The notes beneath the pieces are model-generated. The model saw nothing but the letters and a program-made list of their open reading frames with translations. It had not been told where the DNA came from and did not search any database. From NCBI GenBank assembly GCA_900545665.1, contig UQZU01000009.1, positions 1,476 through 65,475 of the forward strand: DNA of 64,000 nt. Direction: 5' to 3'. This stretch comes from an uncultured Collinsella sp. GTDB lineage: Bacteria > Actinomycetota > Coriobacteriia > Coriobacteriales > Coriobacteriaceae. The translations under genes and the position numbers were made by a program. Shown here in pieces: positions 2 to 19,342 of this stretch; position 1 is the stretch's first letter; each line of letters starts with the position of its first letter.

Positions 2-1765
2 CATGGCGAGTACGAAGCCTTTATGCACATCCTCAACAACTGCTCGGGCGTCGTGCGCGAGCATGTCGACGAGATTTTTGGCGACACGCTCACCTTTGAC
101 GAAAAGGGCGAGCTGTGCACGCTCATCTACTACCCGCACGAGAAGATCGAGCTGGTCCGCAGCCAGCGCGAGGACTCGCCCACCTGGTACAAGACGATGC
201 TTGACCAGCTCATCATGGTCGCTCGTTCGCTTTCAAGCCGCTACACGCGCTCCAAGGTGCGTAAGGCCATACCGCGCGATTACGCCTATATCATCGACGA
301 GTTGTTGCACACGCACCCGGACGAGAACAACTATCGCGTGCGCTATCACGAGCGCATCGTGGAGTCCATCCTGGAGACCGCCAGCGCCGACGACTTTATC
401 GAGTCACTCGCCTCGCTCATCAAGCGCTTGGCCGTCGACCACCTGCACCTGGTGGGCGACATCTTCGACCGCGGCGGCGGTGCGGCCAAGATTATGGACC
501 GTCTGCTCACCTACCATTCACTCGACATCCAGTGGGGCAACCACGACCTGCTGTGGATGGGCGCTGCGGCCGGTGAGCCCGCCTGCATCGCCACGGTGTT
601 GCGCAACAACCTACGCTACGACAACTACGAGATCCTGGAGAACGACTACGGCATCTCGCTGCGTGAGCTTGTCGCCTTTGCCGATGCCACCTACACCGCC
701 GGTGAGTCCATCACCCCGCTGATCAAGGCCATCAACGTGCTGCTCTTTAAGCTCGAGGGTCAGATTATCCAGCGCCACCCCGAGTTCGATATGACCGACC
801 GCCTGTTACTCGACAAGATCGAGCACGACACCGGCACGGTCACGCTCGCCGACGGCAGCGTATGGCCGCTCACGACCAACGACTTCCCCACCGTCGATCC
901 GGCGGACCCCTATACGCTCACGTCTCAGGAGCAGCACATCATCGACAAGCTCGTGTCCGAGTTTGTCACCGCCGATCACCTGCATCGCCATATCGATTTC
1001 CTCTATTCCCACGGCTCGATGTACAAGGTCGCCAACGGCAACCTGCTCTTCCATGGCTGCGTTCCGCTCAACGAAGACGGCACCTTTAGCAGCATGAACT
1101 GCCTGGGCACCTGGCACGCCGGCCGCGATTATCTCGATTTTTGCGACCACATCGCCCGCCGCGCGTGGCGCGTGGGCGACCGCGATGCCCTCGACTGGAT
1201 GTGGTACCTGTGGATTGGCTTCAATTCACCCGCCAGCGGACGCCTGGTGCGTACCTTTGAGCGCGCCTATATCGCCGATAAGAGCACCTGGGTCGAGCCG
1301 ATGGACCCGTACTTTACGCTTACCAAGTCGCCCTCGGTCTGCGACGACATCATGCGCGAGTTTGGCGTCGCGCCCATGGCATGTTCGCCGACCGGCCACA
1401 TCATCAACGGCCACACGCCCGTTAAAACCACCAAGGGCGAGCAGCCCATCCGCGCCAACGGCAAGCTGCTGGTCATCGATGGCGGCTTCTGCCGCGCTTA
1501 CCATCCCAAGACGGGTATCGCCGGCTATACGCTTATCTCGAGCTCGCGCGGCTGCCGCCTCAAGTCGCACCGGGCCTTTACGACGGTTGCCGAGGCACTC
1601 ACGCGCAACGTGGACATCGAGAGCGAGACCAACCGTTTTGACCAAGCGGACCGTCGCCGCATGGTGAGCGACACCGATACTGGCGCCAAAATTCGCAGCC
1701 AGATCCAGGACCTGCGCCAGCTGCTCGATGCATATAGAAACGGTGCTATCGAAGAGCGCGTCTAG
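2..1765 (+). CDS. fbp: Fructose-1,6-bisphosphatase class 3 (5' end cut by window edge)
   Basis: The frame is open from the window edge (HGEYEAF precedes the first Met at 23). Metallophosphoesterase motifs HLVGDIFDRGG and GNHDLLWMG are present, and the overall sequence is typical of Firmicutes-type FBPase III. Stop at 1763-1765. Confidence 0.9.
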   Translation, partial: HGEYEAFMHILNNCSGVVREHVDEIFGDTLTFDEKGELCTLIYYPHEKIELVRSQREDSPTWYKTMLDQLIMVARSLSSRYTRSKVRKAIPRDYAYIIDELLHTHPDENNYRVRYHERIVESILETASADDFIESLASLIKRLAVDHLHLVGDIFDRGGGAAKIMDRLLTYHSLDIQWGNHDLLWMGAAAGEPACIATVLRNNLRYDNYEILENDYGISLRELVAFADATYTAGESITPLIKAINVLLFKLEGQIIQRHPEFDMTDRLLLDKIEHDTGTVTLADGSVWPLTTNDFPTVDPADPYTLTSQEQHIIDKLVSEFVTADHLHRHIDFLYSHGSMYKVANGNLLFHGCVPLNEDGTFSSMNCLGTWHAGRDYLDFCDHIARRAWRVGDRDALDWMWYLWIGFNSPASGRLVRTFERAYIADKSTWVEPMDPYFTLTKSPSVCDDIMREFGVAPMACSPTGHIINGHTPVKTTKGEQPIRANGKLLVIDGGFCRAYHPKTGIAGYTLISSSRGCRLKSHRAFTTVAEALTRNVDIESETNRFDQADRRRMVSDTDTGAKIRSQIQDLRQLLDAYRNGAIEERV

Positions 1766-3025: not shown

Positions 3026-3937
3026 CTAGCCCGTTACGTAATACCAAACGACGTTGTCACCATTGGAGAGAACGTAGTTACTGCAGGCCGTCATGGGCGT
3101 TGTGCCGTTGACGGAGTACATCCAGCCGCTCGTGCCGCCGTACTGTTTCTCGGCCAAACCACCAATCGCAGAAACATACGTGCCGTACGATGAGCCGTGT
3201 GCGTTGACAGAAAGGCCCAGCGCGCACAGGGCATCGTAAACGGTGGCGCCTTCGTTAAAGGTAAAGGTGCCGCCAGAGGACACGGGATTGCCCACAGCGC
3301 TCGATGTGACCGAAACCGTCACCGTAACGTAGTTGGACTCCTGTGAGCCGCTTTGGCTGCCCGAGGAGGCGTTTCCACCATTAGGGGATGAGGCTCCATC
3401 AGACGACTGGCCACCGCCCGAAGAAGCACCGCCAGACGCATTGGAAGTATCACCGGCTCCCGTATTTTGGGCAGCGGATTTATCGCCAGACCTCTTGCTG
3501 TCCTGGCCATCGGACTTCTTGCTATCCGAGCTTTTGTCCGATTCCTTGTGCGAAGACTCGGAATCATCCTTGGCGTCGTTCGAGCCCTTGGACTCATCTT
3601 TTGCAGCATCCGAAGATTTGGAATCCTTGGAACTGGCCTCGCCCGAAGCGGTAGACGAGCCAGACCCCTTGGTGTCCTTGGCGACGACGCTCTCCCCCGT
3701 CACGGTCTGAACGATCCAGTCAATGGACCAGGCGCCGCTCTCGGAAGGATGGACGAAGCCCAGCGAGACGACGATCAGAATGGTGCACGCGGCAGCAAGA
3801 ACGCCAAGGAGCGCCTTGCGACGAGATGCGGACGCCGCCGAAGCGGCGCCCTGTTGCTTTGCATCGTCGAACTGAATGAACGAGGAATCTGGTTGCTTGG
3901 GGTCAGCGTCCTTGGATTTATTGGACACAACCCTCAC
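3026..3937 (-). CDS. N-terminally membrane-anchored DUF4430 (transcobalamin-like beta domain) protein
   Basis: Signal-anchor helix LLGVLAAACTILIVVSLGFV, a long S/D/K/G-rich low-complexity spacer, and a C-terminal DUF4430-like module (TFTFNEGATVYDAL...GGTSGWMYSVNGT...LSNGDNVVWYYV). The GTG start directly abuts the TAG of the upstream gene. Confidence 0.8.
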   Translation of the reverse strand: MRVVSNKSKDADPKQPDSSFIQFDDAKQQGAASAASASRRKALLGVLAAACTILIVVSLGFVHPSESGAWSIDWIVQTVTGESVVAKDTKGSGSSTASGEASSKDSKSSDAAKDESKGSNDAKDDSESSHKESDKSSDSKKSDGQDSKRSGDKSAAQNTGAGDTSNASGGASSGGGQSSDGASSPNGGNASSGSQSGSQESNYVTVTVSVTSSAVGNPVSSGGTFTFNEGATVYDALCALGLSVNAHGSSYGTYVSAIGGLAEKQYGGTSGWMYSVNGTTPMTACSNYVLSNGDNVVWYYVTG

Positions 3938-6900
3938 CTACCGACGTTTGGTGAACACGAACACGCCGACGATGGCGAGACCGATGACGCCGGCGGCAAC
4001 GCCAACAATGGCGAGCGGGTTGGTGCCAGTCTCCTGCTCGGAAGCACTGGAGGACTTCTTAGCAGTGGTCGTGGAAGCAGCACCCGTATCGGACTTCTTG
4101 TCGGACTTGTTGTCCTTCTTGTCAGACTTCTTCTCATCCTTCTTGTCGGACTTGTTTTCCTTGGTCTCGGCCTTGGTCGACACCGTCGTCTTGGTCGTCG
4201 GCTTATGACCCGGGGCGACAGCGCCGCCCTTCGAGCCGGAGCCGGAACCCGTGCCAGTGCCAGCGCCAGTGCCGGAACCAGTACCGGTACCAGAACCGCC
4301 GCCGCCATTCGAACCTGCGCCGCCATTACCGCCAGGGTTAACGGCATTCTTGGTCCACTTGGCATACAGCGTCAGATCGGCCGTCACCGGCGTGGCGAAG
4401 TCATACGCCCGCGTGCAGGCTTCATCGGTATACCAACCGCCGAAAGTGTAGCCATCGCGCGTCGGATCGGCCGGCTTGACCAGCTTGCCATCGGCCGTGG
4501 CAACAAACTTAGTGTCGCAAGCAGACCCGCCGTTGGAATTAAAGGCAACCGTCCAAGACTCAACGGCCCCAAGCTTGAACAGCGTGCCCGAGTCATTGAT
4601 GTAGTACAGGTTGCCAGATGCATCGGCAATGACCGGAGAGTCACAGTACTGGTAATGGCCAGCCGCATCATAAATCTGCGTCGCCTCTGCATCGCCGAGC
4701 GTATAGCGATACACCCCACCACCAGCAGAGTAGCTGACGTAGTCCTTGCTATCCGCGCTATTAACGGTGAAGTACACATAGGTCTTGCCGCCCTGAACAC
4801 TCACCAGCGGAGTAGCAGCAATACCGTTAAATCCGGCCGGTAGCTCTTTACCGTCAGCAGCGGTGACCATCGTGGTCTTACCAGTCTTCAGATTATAGAG
4901 AACCAGAGCAGATCCAGTAGCCGTCTGCCCACCGACAATCAAGTTGTCGCCAGACATCGCCGGGGCGCTCATGTTGTTCGTAAGACCCAGGTCGACCGTC
5001 TTCTGCTCGCTCAGCACGCCCTTCGCCGAAAGCGAAATCACATGGAGCTTTCCGTCGTGCGTCATCTGATAGAAGGTCGAGCCATTGGACGGATCGGCGA
5101 CGCAGTCAGCGTTCGCAAGGGTGCCGAGCTTCATGGTCGAAACGACATCGCCCGTTGCCTTATCAATGCACTTAAGCGTACCTGCGCTCGTGGGGACGAT
5201 GGCGTACTTATCCGTCAGGGCAGCGCCAGTCCAATAATAGCCCTCAGCTGCGTCGATGTTCTGCCAAGAGACTTCGCCTGTGGTGATCTTGATGCGCGTA
5301 AAGGAACCGTTGACGTATTTCTTCCCATCAGCCGTACCTACATAGACGTACTCGCCGTCCGAAACGACGGTGCAGGAGCTCTGCGTCAAGTCCGTCAAAC
5401 CAGGCGTCAGCCACTTGCAGATCAGCTTGTCTGCAGTAATCGCCTGGACCGCACCGCCGTTGAGCGGAACGATGATAAGGCCGTTGGTATAGATCGGACG
5501 GGAGGTATAGCTCACCTTGGAGGCAAGCGGCGCAGAGGCAACCTTTTTGCCCGTGGACGAATCGATCTTAATGAGCTCGTTCTCGGTCGCGATGTACACA
5601 AAGCCGTTGGCGATGACAGGTTCGCTGCAGTTGGCATACTGCTGACCAGACTCGGCCTTCCAATCGAAGGCCCACTTAAGACCGGAAGCCTGCGCAGGCG
5701 TCTTGGCATCCGTTACGGTCGAACCGTTGCCACTGTTGCCGTAGCCGGCCCACTCGGCATCCCAATCAGGAGTCGTCGCGCTCGGATCCACGACAATCTT
5801 GTCGGGATCGGGCATGGGCGAATTATCGGTGGTATAGGCAAGCGTGACCTTATCGCCGCTCTTGAGCGTAATCTGATTGGCGCAGAGTAAGGAGGGCTCT
5901 CCGTTGATATACAGATGCCAATATTTATTGGTCGCAGCATCCCAACCATACGGCTTGTGATCGAACGGCGAAGTAATGGAATTCAGGAACCAGTACTCAC
6001 CACTCTGGGAGCCGTTGTACGCAACGCCCTTGGCCTTCAGAACTGCCTCAATAAGGTTCTGGGCCGTGGAGCCTTCGGGCAGAGAAACATTGCTTGCCGT
6101 GCCCCAACGCGTATTGTTCCCGTTGACATCGGGACCGATAACATCGGCGGATCCAAGCACCTGACCGGGGAGGACATCGGCGTCAGCACCATACATAAAG
6201 GTGACGGCGTCACCCTCCTGGAGCTTGTAGGCACCGGCGCCAACGTCGGCGAACTTGCCATTTACGTAGAAGCGCCAATAGCTCTTGGTCGCAGCATCCC
6301 AGCCATAGGACTTACCATCAAACGGCGAAGTAATGCCGTTGAGGAACCAGCCCCAAGACGATTCGCCAGCATCGAGAGTAAGGCCGGTCTGCTCAAGGAG
6401 ATCCTTGGCAGTAGAGCCTGCCTTGAGACTCGTCTGGCCCGTCGAAGCCCAAATCTGCTGCTTGCCGTCCTTGTCCTTACCAAGCACCTGAACGGAAGCA
6501 TGAACGGAATCAGAGGGCAGCTGGTCGCCCCAGCCACCGTAGAACCACGTGACGGTATCGCCAACATGGATGGTGACATTGTCCGCCGTATAGTCACTCG
6601 ACTTGCCGTTGATGAACAGCTGCCAATAGGTCGAATAATCTTGGGGCGTACCCAGTTCAACACCGTTGTACTTAAGGCTCAGAATGAAGGAGCCCGCAGC
6701 AACGGCGTCGATGCCATTCGCCTCAAGCGCGACCTTCGTAAGGTCAAGTGCGCTCGAGCCGGACGTCACCACATACTGCGCGTTATCGACCCAGGTCTGA
6801 GTCTTGCCCTGGGCATCGCGACCAATGACGGTCACATTTGCGGCAACCTGGTCCTTAACGACAGGGGACGAGCTACCAGCCGTATAGGCAAACTCAATCT

Positions 6901-7651
6901 TCTGCCCCCGGGTGAGCTTGACGCTGCTCGCGCCAACCGAGGAAGACGCGCCGTCGACGAACAGCTGCCAGTAGGCATAGGTCGTCGGATCGTAGGCAAG
7001 CGTGCGGCCATCGCTCGGGGATGTGATGCTTTCGAGGTAGAAACCGTATGCCGTGTTCGGATCGTACTTCGCCTTGAAGCCCGTCTTCTCCTGCAGCTTA
7101 ATGAAGGCATCCGCAGCCGTCGCGCCCTCGTCGAGCTTGAGCTGCGTAGGTGCCACCCAGGTCTGAGCCCTGCCGTCAGCATCGGTGCCGATAATCGAGA
7201 ACGAGACCTCGACCTGCTTCTTGGCAACATCGCCGGTTTCTGTCGGGTTCTCTGTCTGAACGGCAGCCGCGGCGGCAGATCCCACTTGGCCAGCGGATGC
7301 CGTCGAAGACTGCTCGCTCGTGGCAGGGCTCTCCCCCGTCGCCGAGCCTTCGTCGCCAGTTGCTGCCTCTGTTGTGGCTGCACTAGCTGCAGGCGCGCCC
7401 TCGGAATCCGAAACCTCGGCGCCGCTCTGCTCAGCGGTACCGCCCGCAAGCGCTGCGTCCTCGCCCGGCGTCGCAGTCTGAGCCACAGCCTCGGCAATGC
7501 CCTCGGCGCCCTCGGCCCACAGCTGAGCCGGTGTGGTGCCAAAGGCCATCGCGAAGGCCAGGAATGCCACCAGGCCGCGCTTGGCTACGCCGCGCGCAAT
7601 TGCGCCACGGCGATGCGAGACGCGCTGGCGCTCGTCCTCAAACATATCCAT
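3938..7651 (-). CDS. Giant tail-anchored surface protein: signal peptide, 4x DUF4430 repeats, PQQ/BamB-like beta-propeller, Flg_new (Listeria-Bacteroides) repeat, K/D/S-rich spacer, C-terminal TM
   Basis: Start reassigned to ATG 7651, with AGGAGA 4 nt upstream; the track start at 7795 is a TTG inside the riboswitch leader. N-terminus RGLVAFLAFAMAFGTTPAQLWA is signal-like. Four ~112-aa repeats end YWQLFVDG..KIEFAY, YWQLFING..TVTWFY, YWRFYVNG..AVTFMY and YWHLYING..KVTLAY. Repeated propeller blades include GFVYIATENELIKID and DGEYVYVGTADG. A DGYTFGGWYTDEACT..LTLYAKW repeat follows. C-terminus is IVGVAAGVIGLAIVGVFVFTKRR. Confidence 0.85.
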   Translation of the reverse strand: MDMFEDERQRVSHRRGAIARGVAKRGLVAFLAFAMAFGTTPAQLWAEGAEGIAEAVAQTATPGEDAALAGGTAEQSGAEVSDSEGAPAASAATTEAATGDEGSATGESPATSEQSSTASAGQVGSAAAAAVQTENPTETGDVAKKQVEVSFSIIGTDADGRAQTWVAPTQLKLDEGATAADAFIKLQEKTGFKAKYDPNTAYGFYLESITSPSDGRTLAYDPTTYAYWQLFVDGASSSVGASSVKLTRGQKIEFAYTAGSSSPVVKDQVAANVTVIGRDAQGKTQTWVDNAQYVVTSGSSALDLTKVALEANGIDAVAAGSFILSLKYNGVELGTPQDYSTYWQLFINGKSSDYTADNVTIHVGDTVTWFYGGWGDQLPSDSVHASVQVLGKDKDGKQQIWASTGQTSLKAGSTAKDLLEQTGLTLDAGESSWGWFLNGITSPFDGKSYGWDAATKSYWRFYVNGKFADVGAGAYKLQEGDAVTFMYGADADVLPGQVLGSADVIGPDVNGNNTRWGTASNVSLPEGSTAQNLIEAVLKAKGVAYNGSQSGEYWFLNSITSPFDHKPYGWDAATNKYWHLYINGEPSLLCANQITLKSGDKVTLAYTTDNSPMPDPDKIVVDPSATTPDWDAEWAGYGNSGNGSTVTDAKTPAQASGLKWAFDWKAESGQQYANCSEPVIANGFVYIATENELIKIDSSTGKKVASAPLASKVSYTSRPIYTNGLIIVPLNGGAVQAITADKLICKWLTPGLTDLTQSSCTVVSDGEYVYVGTADGKKYVNGSFTRIKITTGEVSWQNIDAAEGYYWTGAALTDKYAIVPTSAGTLKCIDKATGDVVSTMKLGTLANADCVADPSNGSTFYQMTHDGKLHVISLSAKGVLSEQKTVDLGLTNNMSAPAMSGDNLIVGGQTATGSALVLYNLKTGKTTMVTAADGKELPAGFNGIAATPLVSVQGGKTYVYFTVNSADSKDYVSYSAGGGVYRYTLGDAEATQIYDAAGHYQYCDSPVIADASGNLYYINDSGTLFKLGAVESWTVAFNSNGGSACDTKFVATADGKLVKPADPTRDGYTFGGWYTDEACTRAYDFATPVTADLTLYAKWTKNAVNPGGNGGAGSNGGGGSGTGTGSGTGAGTGTGSGSGSKGGAVAPGHKPTTKTTVSTKAETKENKSDKKDEKKSDKKDNKSDKKSDTGAASTTTAKKSSSASEQETGTNPLAIVGVAAGVIGLAIVGVFVFTKRR

Positions 7652-7794
7652 TTGTCTCCTACTGTCTGCACTTGGAGCGTTGCCTTGAGACTGCCCCACG
7701 TCATCGCGCATGTTGCGCTCGAGTTCCCCCATCGGGGTCCCCCTTCCCTCCAGAGCCCTATGCACACCGGCGGCAAAAGCCGCAGCCGCATGCA

Positions 7795-7968
7795 AGACGG
7801 GAGGCGATCCGACTTAACCTTAACGACTCGGGCACGTCGTCCGATCTGCGACGCGAGCATCCCGAGCCAAGAGGAATTACGGTTACTGGTACAGCTGGGG
7901 ACTTGCACCCCGATTCTCCCAAATGCGCAGGATAACCGCGCATTCGTGCGTCTCCGCACCACCATCTA
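7795..7968 (-). promoter_or_regulatory. Cobalamin (B12) riboswitch-like leader
   Basis: The minus strand reads GGTGGTGCGGAGACGCACG, then hairpin AATGCGC-ggttatcct-GCGCATT, then TGGGAGAATCGGGGTGCAAGTCCCCAGCTGTACCAGTAACCGTAA. This matches the conserved GGGA..GGTGCAAGTCC..GCTGT.CC..AC.GTAA core. It is followed by stem CTCGGG...CCCGAG with a nested CGTCG/CGACG hairpin and a B12-box-like AAGTCGGATCGCCTCCC. A separate terminator (8003-8031) lies upstream. Confidence 0.75.
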
Positions 7969-8002
7969 GGCCATCGATTATTACCGTCAAAATGGTATCA
8001 CG

Positions 8003-8031
8003 CAAAAGGGCCTCGCACGCAGGCGAAGCCC
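8003..8031 (-). terminator. Intrinsic terminator of the ABC1-kinase operon
   Basis: The minus strand reads GGGCTTCGCCTGCGTGCGAGGCCC followed by TTTTGCG, about 50 nt after the stop at 8083. Confidence 0.7.
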
Positions 8032-8082
8032 AAGGTAAAAGCTATTGTTTGCGATAGGAAAATGCGGTGACGGCCGCAGCCT

Positions 8083-19096: not shown

Positions 19097-19122
19097 AGAA
19101 AAGGGCCGGTTGCAGCCGGCCC
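19097..19122 (-). terminator. Probable terminator about 220 nt downstream of the zinc-ribbon gene
   Basis: The minus strand reads GGGCCGG-ctgcaa-CCGGCCC followed by TTTTC. Confidence 0.5.
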
Positions 19123-19342
19123 TAGACGATAATACCTGCGTTGCCCGCGTCTCCGAAGTTTAAGCGCTGAGGAGCGGGTTCCGCGGCACAACCTGATTTT
19201 ACCCAGTGAGGCAGCTCTTTTGCAGCCGCTCCACTGTTTATTTACATCTGGCACCCTCAAACAATCAGACAGCAGCCCGCACTCCTGAGAGCCGCCCCGC
19301 ACCCCCGGCCATCACGTTACGGCAACAACCGGCGCTACTCCC

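What the first reader, a model, noticed from the sequence alone, without database searches (positions are those of the whole stretch)
7795..7968. Cobalamin riboswitch-like aptamer hidden under a spurious N-terminal ORF extension
On the minus strand the segment contains, in order:
- GGTGGTGCGG...
- a clean hairpin AATGCGC/GCGCATT
- the near-canonical core TGGGAGAATCGGGGTGCAAGTCCCCAGCTGTACCAGTAACCGTAA
- a long stem CTCGGG/CCCGAG with a nested CGTCG/CGACG hairpin
- a B12-box-like AAGTCGGATCGCCTCCC

The supplied ORF track begins the downstream protein with a TTG at 7795, which reads through the 3' part of this leader. A much better start is ATG 7651, with AGGAGA 4 nt upstream and a signal-peptide-like N-terminus following it.
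Basis: partly seen in the sequence, partly recalled or inferred. Interest (0 to 1): 0.6.

Follow-up and report, generated by a model that had tools for sequence, protein, structure and literature searches.

The report
Under-detected vitamin B12 riboswitch variant
A vitamin-B12-sensing RNA switch that standard databases score below threshold sits in front of a probable B12-capture surface protein in a gut Coriobacteriaceae bacterium (probably Collinsella), and it couples sensing to translation through an unusual long-range helix.

Summary
They form a 178-nt structured RNA on the minus strand (7972-7795) plus an expression platform reaching 7727.

Rfam does not call it: AdoCbl-II scores 29.0 bits (cut-off 36.5) and Cobalamin 10.9 (cut-off 31.5). 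A model built from it finds one copy in 193 of 200 genomes of the family and in 30 of 83 genera of the order. In 46 distinct homologues 95.9% of cells pair and 37 of 53 pairs change on both sides. Several homologues pass the Rfam cut-offs, so this is a divergent cobalamin riboswitch.

- **Core:** Cbl-II-like.
- **Differences:** two hairpins replace the J1/3 bulge, and the P6 extension is long.
- **P0 helix:** a covarying 4-bp helix joins the 5' GGCC to the platform, just before an invariant CUGG complementary to L5 CCAG. It stands where the usual P13 hairpin would be.
- **Downstream genes:** every gene checked encodes DUF4430, the transcobalamin C-terminal domain.
- **Likely mechanism (inferred):** B12 represses translation.
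- **Start codon:** TTG 7795 is spurious. The conserved start is ATG 7732, not 7651.

Ligand binding and regulation were not tested.

The parts
8008..8031 (-). Intrinsic terminator of the upstream ABC1-kinase gene. It marks the 5' limit of the unit.
   Evidence: 9-bp stem followed by TTTTGCG; the upstream ORF 8083-9846 is an ABC1 kinase.
7992..8000 (-). Extended -10 promoter element TGATACCAT. Predicted transcription start about 7986 (inferred).
   Evidence: among 67 upstream sequences, TAnnnT ends 19-20 nt before the GGCC in 36 cases and 18-21 nt before it in 50. It is usually preceded by TGn.
7969..7972 (-). P0 5' strand (GGCC)
   Evidence: pairs with the four bases just 5' of the platform CUGG. 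Compensatory variants are GACC/GGUC, GGUC/GACC and GGU/ACC.
7962..7967 (-). P1 5' strand (AGAUGG)
   Evidence: helix 1: all 6 pairs change on both sides, with up to 4 pair types, and 99.3% of cells pair.
7946..7959 (-). P2a hairpin GUGCG-GAGA-CGCAC (GNRA loop)
   Evidence: helix 2: 4 of 5 pairs change on both sides (for example U-A to C-G in 7 sequences).
7921..7945 (-). P2b variable hairpin (AAUGCGC/GCGCAUU)
   Evidence: helix 3: 10 of 10 pairs change on both sides. Its length varies from 4 to about 60 nt of loop and stem.
7913..7918 (-). P3 5' strand GAG plus J3/4 AAU
   Evidence: helix 4: 3 bp, 99.3% paired, but with one-sided changes only (A-U, G-U, G-C at the middle pair). Aligns to the P3-J3/4 part of AdoCbl-II.
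7896..7912 (-). P4 with a T-loop-like L4 (CGGGG-UGCAAGU-CCCCA)
   Evidence: matches the AdoCbl-II consensus. helix 5: GGGG/CCCC is invariant.
7884..7893 (-). P5/L5. The CCAG at 7886-7889 is the proposed kissing-loop strand.
   Evidence: helix 6: the middle pair shows AU 28, GU 11, GC 7. CCAG is the same in every homologue read: 47 family copies, 21 order-level hits and 19 of 20 further hits (the core pattern was not found in L143).
7880..7882 (-). P6 5' strand (CCG)
   Evidence: helix 7: invariant. Pairs with CGG at 7809-7811.
7812..7879 (-). P6 extension: three stacked helices ending in the conserved loop CAGAUCGGA (7840-7848)
   Evidence: helices 8-10: 16 of 18 pairs change on both sides. 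The extension is absent or short in 8 homologues, and the copies that pass the AdoCbl-II cut-off are mostly among these.
7809..7811 (-). P6 3' strand (CGG)
   Evidence: helix 7.
7801..7808 (-). J6/3 (AUCGC) plus P3 3' strand (CUC): the B12-box-equivalent GAUCGCCUC
   Evidence: aligns to the consensus GAGcGCCaC of AdoCbl-II. Nearly invariant within the family.
7795..7800 (-). P1 3' strand (CCGUCU). The spurious TTG start begins on its last base, 7795.
   Evidence: helix 1. for the ORF.
7758..7794 (-). Variable linker hairpin between P1 and P0. It is not a terminator.
   Evidence: fold; the linker ranges from about 4 to about 50 nt in homologues; no terminator-like site here.
7754..7757 (-). P0 3' strand (GGCU)
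7750..7753 (-). CUGG, the L13 equivalent, complementary to L5 CCAG
   Evidence: Found in every homologue examined. The pairing itself is inferred because there is no variation to test.
7738..7749 (-). Purine-rich Shine-Dalgarno tract (AGGGAAGGGGGA)
   Evidence: a purine-rich SD follows CUGG in all homologues.
7727..7737 (-). Start-codon hairpin CCCC-GAU-GGGG containing ATG 7732-7730
   Evidence: a stem of at least 5 bp encloses the start codon in 28 of 59 distinct sequences, against 11.7 +/- 2.9 in shuffles (0 of 200 shuffles reach it).
3938..7732 (-). Regulated gene (1264 aa from ATG 7732): long N-region signal peptide, 4 DUF4430 domains, beta-propeller, Flg_new repeat, C-terminal membrane anchor
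   Evidence: Frame and start position.
3026..3937 (-). Second gene of the unit: a 303-aa membrane-anchored DUF4430 protein
   Evidence: DUF4430, 68.3 bits.

Best explanation
Window 7972-7795 (minus strand) is the aptamer of a divergent cobalamin (vitamin B12) riboswitch. Window 7794-7727 is its translational expression platform.

Aptamer anatomy:
- The core is the Cbl-II type: P3, J3/4, P4 with a T-loop-like L4, P5/L5, P6 and a GAUCGCCUC box.
- Two hairpins (P2a with a GNRA loop, and a variable P2b) lie between P1 and P3, where Cbl-II has the J1/3 bulge.
- P6 carries a long, lineage-specific extension.

Platform anatomy:
- There is no local P13 hairpin.
- The platform octamer GGCU-CUGG (GGCC-CUGG in most relatives) pairs its first half with the 5'-proximal GGCC. 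This is helix P0, and it is shown by covariation.
- Its second half is complementary to the L5 CCAG. This pairing is inferred because both motifs are invariant.
- The Shine-Dalgarno tract and ATG 7732, held in a small hairpin, follow directly.

Proposed action (inferred by analogy with env8 and btuB-type switches): bound B12 stabilises the L5-CUGG contact stacked on P0. That packs the SD and start codon against the aptamer and represses translation of the DUF4430 surface protein, and probably of the second DUF4430 gene. The products are probably used for corrinoid capture.
For: Structure:
- 95.9% of cells pair, against 37-47% for slid controls. 37 of 53 pairs change on both sides, and 0 of 500 shuffles reach the observed values.
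- P1 pairs show up to four pair types.

Family identity:
- The core aligns to RF01689 at E = 9e-5.
- Homologues found with the window-derived model R1 pass Rfam cut-offs. For AdoCbl-II: L113 42.8, L111 38.9, L074 38.0, L112 37.3 and L108 36.6 bits, and L133 44.2, L121 42.3, L132 41.5 and L119 37.4 bits. For Cobalamin: L122 33.4 bits.
- R1 finds exactly one copy in the window's own genome.

P0 helix:
- Pairs 1-3 are standard pairs in all 45 distinct constructs.
- The compensatory states are GACC/GGUC and GGUC/GACC, plus GGU/ACC in L146.

Platform:
- CUGG, a purine-rich SD and an ATG/GTG are conserved across the family and order.
- No terminator lies in the leader.
- The start-codon hairpin is enriched over shuffles.
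- An extended -10 element sits at a fixed distance, which places the GGCC inside the transcript.

Gene context:
- All 10 downstream proteins scanned carry DUF4430.
- In other genera a small DUF4430 lipoprotein is followed by a fused ECF-type transporter.
- The genome encodes a MetH-type B12-dependent enzyme.

Established knowledge:
- DUF4430 is the C-terminal domain of transcobalamin-type B12 carriers (PMC4350170).
- The kissing loop occludes the RBS in Cbl-II switches (PMC5028336).
Against: - The window copy is below both Rfam cut-offs: 29.0 vs 36.5 and 10.9 vs 31.5.
- P3 is only 3 bp and shows one-sided changes only. P4 and P6 are invariant, so the four-way junction rests on homology to the consensus rather than on covariation.
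- CCAG and CUGG never vary, so their pairing is untested.
- No ligand binding, transcript or expression data exist.
- Alignment A3 was fitted to the model's structure, which biases the pair counts towards that structure.
- Codon-position variability in 7732-7652 is only weakly coding-like ([6, 9, 11]). Use of ATG 7732 in this particular clade is therefore inferred from relatives.
- The single-sequence fold favours pairing of the aptamer tail with GGAGG of the platform.
Confidence: 0.78

Rival explanations
1. It is a cobalamin riboswitch, but with inverted or different logic. The pyrimidine-rich aptamer tail (GCCUCCC) acts as an anti-SD that masks the SD when the aptamer is unfolded, so B12 binding would switch expression on. 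Alternatively, control acts mainly through Rho or mRNA decay rather than directly on initiation.
For: - The single-sequence MFE pairs CGCCUCCC with GGAGG of the platform.
- Own-pair duplex energies average -8.7 kcal/mol.
- Activating corrinoid riboswitches exist (PMC10327014, title and abstract only).
Against: - There is no co-evolution. Own tail-SD duplexes are no stronger than cross pairs (-8.71 vs -8.83 kcal/mol; 3412 of 5000 permutations do as well).
- In the window the GGAGG involved lies 13-18 nt before the ATG. The G-run nearest the ATG stays free.
- Uptake and capture genes are normally repressed by B12.
- P0 and CUGG conservation is unexplained by this model.
Confidence: 0.12
2. It is a conserved structured leader descended from a cobalamin riboswitch that no longer senses B12. 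It might sense a different corrinoid or ligand, or serve as a constitutive structural or stability element. The altered J1/3, J6/3 and P13 regions would reflect that change.
For: - Sub-threshold Rfam scores.
- J6/3 reads AUCGCC instead of the consensus AGCGCCAC.
- L5 reads ACCA instead of ACCU.
- J1/3, a known selectivity determinant (PMC6158498), is replaced by two hairpins.
Against: - The binding-core positions are nearly invariant across the order and match the consensus.
- The association with DUF4430 and ECF-type genes is constant.
- Scores grade continuously into Rfam-positive relatives.
Confidence: 0.07
3. The region codes for protein: the TTG-7795 ORF is real and the RNA motifs are incidental.
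For: An open frame runs from 7795.
Against: - Substitutions follow base-pairing rather than codon structure.
- Hairpin lengths vary by non-multiples of three.
- TTG 7795 begins on the last base of the P1 3' strand.
- Relatives have no equivalent frame through the aptamer, and their ORFs start after the SD.
Confidence: 0.01

Closest known systems
Rfam RF01689 AdoCbl-II (class II cobalamin riboswitch, e.g. env8)
   Same: - The P3-J3/4-P4-P5-P6-J6/3 core sequence and order match.
- The design is translational, with an L5 partner next to the RBS (PMC5028336).
- Several homologues of this lineage exceed its gathering score.
   Different: - The window copy scores 29.0, below the 36.5 cut-off.
- The J1/3 bulge is replaced by two hairpins.
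- P6 carries a 68-nt extension.
- L5 reads ACCA(G) rather than ACCU.
- There is no local P13 hairpin. The L13 equivalent follows a helix formed with the 5' leader (P0).
Rfam RF00174 Cobalamin (class I, e.g. T. tengcongensis, E. coli btuB)
   Same: - Helical elements lie between P1 and P3, and there is a P6 extension (class features per PMC7367189).
- Relative L122 passes its cut-off (33.4 bits) and L088 nearly does (31.4 vs 31.5).
   Different: - The window copy scores 10.9 bits against a cut-off of 31.5.
- The P6 extension is an unbranched stack of three helices, with no P7-P11 second junction.
- No GCCACUG-type box is placed as in class I.
Bacillus subtilis yvrC 'atypical' cobalamin riboswitch (PMC7367189)
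   Same: It is a described structural hybrid: a P2 module (a class I trait) with a small, unbranched P6 extension (a class II trait). It lies upstream of a B12 transporter operon.
   Different: - It has one P2 stem-loop, not two.
- It has a P13/P14 platform with a local L13 hairpin.
- No sequence-level comparison was made here; the resemblance is architectural only.
Mycobacterium tuberculosis ppe2 'atypical class IIb' switch (PMC11260477)
   Same: It is actinobacterial, a compact translational OFF switch with a truncated P6 extension, and it departs from the class IIb junction motifs.
   Different: ppe2 has a fused P1-P3 arm and acts through a uORF. The element here has two inserted hairpins, the P0 helix and direct control of the main ORF. 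It was not compared by sequence here.

Membership tests
Cobalamin riboswitch clan (Rfam CL00101) | Score at or above the curated gathering cut-off of RF00174 or RF01689 | tested here: not met
   Window copy: RF01689 29.0 vs 36.5 and RF00174 10.9 vs 31.5. The cut-offs are met by 10 of the 40 homologous copies scanned.
Cobalamin riboswitch clan (Rfam CL00101) | Four-way junction P3-P6 with the conserved core sequence (PMC7367189) | tested here: inconclusive
   P4, P5 and P6 are present in consensus order, and P5 covaries (AU/GU/GC). P3 is only 3 bp with one-sided changes, and P4 and P6 are invariant. The core aligns to the consensus.
Cobalamin riboswitch clan (Rfam CL00101) | B12 box / J6/3 conserved sequence | tested here: met
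   CGGAUCGCCUC aligns to the consensus CcGAGcGCCaC with two substitutions. It is nearly invariant in the family.
Cobalamin riboswitch clan (Rfam CL00101) | Kissing interaction between L5 and a loop (L13) of the expression platform | tested here: inconclusive
   L5 CCAG and platform CUGG are complementary and unchanged in every homologue read, so no covariation test is possible. The partner is not in a local hairpin loop but follows helix P0.
Cobalamin riboswitch clan (Rfam CL00101) | Location in the 5' leader of B12-related genes | tested here: met
   Downstream genes carry DUF4430, and in other genera an ECF-type transporter follows. That DUF4430 binds B12 is inferred from the transcobalamin relationship (PMC4350170).
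Cobalamin riboswitch clan (Rfam CL00101) | Direct binding of a cobalamin or cobamide | not testable with these tools
   Needs in-line probing, ITC or a reporter assay.
Class II (Cbl-IIa/b) subclass | J1/3 bulge or short mismatched segment between P1 and P3, and only a small P6 extension (PMC7367189) | tested here: not met
   Two covarying hairpins lie between P1 and P3, and the window copy has a 68-nt three-helix P6 extension.
Class I (Cbl-I) subclass | A single loop-stem-loop P2 module and a large P6 extension with a P7-P11 junction (PMC7367189) | tested here: not met
   There are two hairpins, not one. The P6 extension is unbranched. RF00174 scores 10.9 bits.

The most novel reading that the evidence does not exclude
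Coriobacteriales use a distinct subclass of cobalamin riboswitch, mostly missed by Rfam. In it the regulatory P13 hairpin is replaced by a split helix. One platform strand, GGCC-CUGG, bridges the 5' leader (P0) and L5 in a composite coaxial helix, directly abutting the SD and a start-codon hairpin. This subclass is dedicated to DUF4430-based Gram-positive corrinoid-capture and ECF-uptake genes, and so marks an uncharacterised B12-acquisition regulon.
Probability: 0.45. Interest if true: 0.6.

Novelty: new variant of a known kind. Interest (0 to 1): 0.45.

Why it matters
- **Annotation gap.** Rfam-based annotation would report no B12 riboswitch in this genome. Of the 40 further copies of this lineage scanned against Rfam, from this family and the rest of the order, only 10 reach a gathering cut-off. 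B12 regulons in these abundant gut Actinobacteria are therefore under-called. A seed alignment from this lineage would fix that.
- **Functional pointer.** The switch is the strongest available evidence that DUF4430 surface proteins and lipoproteins belong to corrinoid acquisition in Gram-positive gut bacteria, where no extracellular B12-capture system has been characterised.
- **Mechanism.** The covarying P0 helix offers a testable alternative way of coupling the L5 contact to the ribosome-binding site.
- **Gene model.** The start moves from TTG 7795 to ATG 7732.

Tried and rejected
- **GGUG(13-16)/CGCC pairing.** Rejected. The 5' bases belong to the covarying P2a hairpin, and the 3' partner changes without compensation in L076 and L106.
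- **RNAalifold register GGGAG/CUCCC.** Rejected for its outer two pairs. Column 12:269 covaries as part of P1 (GC, AU, CG and UA). Only GAG/CUC is kept as P3.
- **A local P13 hairpin around CUGG.** Candidates exist in some members but none is consistent, and each conflicts with the covarying P0.
- **Anti-SD co-evolution.** None found.
- **A second riboswitch at G000:C48:9635-9745.** RF00174 scores 16 bits there. It is treated as noise: E = 0.12 in 801 nt, and model R1 does not find it.
- **Codon-position test for translation of 7732-7652.** Equivocal.
- **Literature search for Collinsella plus cobalamin riboswitch, and for DUF4430 plus cobalamin.** No prior description was found in the held library.
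- **Blind column-pair scan for further tertiary pairs.** Dominated by lineage-correlated transitions. It added nothing beyond the known helices and the P5 pair.

Full report
**1. Observation**

A whole-window Rfam scan at gathering thresholds finds no cobalamin family. Its only hit is Collinsella-1 RNA at 19103-19296. A permissive scan of 7600-8100 gives RF01689 AdoCbl-II at 29.0 bits against a cut-off of 36.5, with E = 9.3e-5, over 7930-7849. In the whole genome RF00174 gives only 10.9 bits over this locus, and RF01689 gives the same single 29-bit hit.

In that alignment the core matches well, but the outer stems are mis-assigned.

**2. Conservation and structure**

- The 201-nt segment is present in 95 of 101 genomes of the genus, mostly at 92-100% identity and in three at 73-79%.
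- I aligned 20 genus copies (A2) and built covariance model R1.
- R1 finds the element in 193 of 200 genomes of the family, in 5 of 6 genera, usually as one copy per genome. It also finds it in 74 of 201 genomes of the order, in 30 of 83 genera.

A model-guided alignment of 47 diverse copies (A3, 46 distinct rows) gave these counts:

| Measure | Result |
|---|---|
| Cells forming a standard pair | 95.9% |
| Same, with 3' partners slid by 1-3 columns | 37-47% |
| Pairs with changes on both sides | 37 of 53 |
| Shuffles reaching the observed values | 0 of 500 |

- **Strongly covarying:** P1 (6 bp, up to four pair types per pair), the GNRA-capped hairpin P2a, the variable hairpin P2b, and the three helices of the P6 extension.
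- **P5:** its middle pair shows AU, GU and GC.
- **Not testable by covariation:** P4 and P6 (CCG/CGG) are invariant. P3 is reduced to GAG/CUC with one-sided changes only.

Caveat: A3 was fitted to the model's structure, which biases the counts towards that structure. The slid controls and the many double changes argue against an artefact.

**3. Family identity**

The same lineage grades into Rfam-positive riboswitches.

| Set | Copies scored | Pass an Rfam cut-off |
|---|---|---|
| Family members | 19 | 5, all AdoCbl-II (L113 42.8, L111 38.9, L074 38.0, L112 37.3, L108 36.6). L088 reaches 31.4 on RF00174 (cut-off 31.5). |
| More distant order-level hits | 21 | 5 (AdoCbl-II 44.2, 42.3, 41.5, 37.4; Cobalamin 33.4) |

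Most of the family members that pass have a short P6. The window copy has a 68-nt P6 extension with a conserved loop, CAGAUCGGA.

Compared with the class definitions in PMC7367189:
- The core is Cbl-II-like.
- The J1/3 bulge is replaced by two hairpins.
- P6 is extended but unbranched.

It therefore fits neither class I nor class II cleanly. It resembles described hybrids such as B. subtilis yvrC (PMC7367189) and the M. tuberculosis ppe2 switch (PMC11260477).

**4. Expression platform**

Every homologue with a readable platform has the same layout after P1:
1. An optional linker hairpin.
2. GG(C/U)C(C/U)UGG.
3. A purine-rich SD.
4. An ATG/GTG 6-10 nt later that opens the long ORF.

No terminator-like site lies in the leader.

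*P0 helix.* The four bases just 5' of CUGG pair with the 5'-proximal GGCC of the RNA. The observed states are GGCC/GGCC, GGCC/GGCU, GACC/GGUC, GGUC/GACC and GGCU/GGCC. In 45 distinct constructs, pairs 1-3 are always standard, with double changes at three positions. A further GGU/ACC case occurs in L146.

*L5 contact.* CUGG is complementary to the L5 CCAG. Both are the same in every homologue read, so this pairing is inferred and not shown. Together, GGCC-CUGG is the exact complement of L5 CCAG followed by the 5' GGCC. This suggests a composite coaxial helix that takes the place of the local P13/L13 hairpin of canonical switches (PMC5028336).

*Promoter.* An extended -10 element (TGnTAnnnT) ends 19-20 nt upstream of the GGCC in most members. 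In the window it is TGATACCAT at 8000-7992. The GGCC therefore lies inside the transcript, with a predicted start near 7986.

*Start-codon hairpin.* A small hairpin enclosing the start codon is enriched. A stem of at least 5 bp occurs in 28 of 59 distinct sequences, against 11.7 +/- 2.9 in shuffles.

**5. Start codon**

- TTG 7795 begins on the last base of the P1 3' strand, so it is spurious.
- The conserved, riboswitch-coupled start is ATG 7732. It is preceded by AAGGGGGA and sits in CCCC-GAU-GGGG. It is in frame with ATG 7651, 27 codons upstream of it.
- Within the genus the 81-nt stretch keeps its frame with no stops in 27 distinct sequences, but its codon-position bias is weak ([6, 9, 11]).
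- ATG 7651 cannot be excluded as an additional start.

**6. Gene context**

- The regulated protein has four DUF4430 domains, a beta-propeller, a Flg_new repeat and a C-terminal anchor.
- The next gene (3026-3937) is also a DUF4430 protein.
- All nine downstream proteins scanned in relatives carry DUF4430.
- In other genera a small DUF4430 lipoprotein is followed by a fused ECF-type transporter with two ABC ATPase domains and an S-component.
- DUF4430 is the C-terminal domain of transcobalamin-type carriers (PMC4350170).
- The genome encodes a MetH-type B12-dependent methionine synthase.

**7. Rivals**

An anti-SD role for the aptamer tail GCCUCCC is suggested by the single-sequence fold. It gets no co-evolutionary support: own pairs average -8.71 kcal/mol against -8.83 for cross pairs, and 3412 of 5000 permutations do as well.

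The coding reading of 7795-7733 is excluded by the substitution pattern and by indels in the hairpins.

**8. Limits**

- No ligand, transcript or expression data were available.

**9. Verdict**

This is a real, order-wide, under-detected variant of the cobalamin riboswitch. It most likely represses translation of a corrinoid-capture operon.

Noticed in passing
window 19103-19296 (-): Full-length match to Rfam Collinsella-1 RNA (198.7 bits, cut-off 35). It is a known sRNA motif of unknown function and points to the genus Collinsella.
   Followed up: no
L124 (G413:C1) 101-217 and 360-534 (+): Two riboswitch-like aptamers lie in tandem on one strand, about 140 nt apart. Each has its own CUGG, SD and ATG, and the first is followed by what looks like a short ORF. 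This may be a tandem arrangement or uORF-linked control.
   Followed up: no
L073 (G199:C14) 1501-1679 (-): One genus member has an otherwise typical aptamer, but its first ~17 nt (P0 and P1 5' strands, and the start of P2a) are replaced by unrelated sequence (AGAAAUUAUGCGUCACC). This could be a natural P1/P0-less variant or a rearrangement.
   Followed up: no
G104 and G137 (L094/L104, L090/L103): Some genomes of another genus carry two copies. One lies upstream of a large DUF4430/propeller protein. The other lies upstream of a small DUF4430 lipoprotein followed by a fused ECF-type transporter.
   Followed up: partly
window 7840-7848 (-) and relatives: The P6-extension loop CAGAUCGGA is conserved in most family members. 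Other families of the order have GCAGG(C/U)AUGC-type hairpins at that position instead. The shared GCAG suggests a tertiary contact, perhaps with L4.
   Followed up: no
G000:C48:9635-9745 (-): Weak RF00174 match (16 bits) elsewhere in the genome. It is probably noise, because model R1 does not find it.
   Followed up: partly
window 7973-7986 (-) and relatives: The ~12-nt A/U-rich leader between the predicted transcription start and the GGCC is similar across members (for example GCAUUGAUAUGU and CACAUAUACAUU). Its role is unknown.
   Followed up: no
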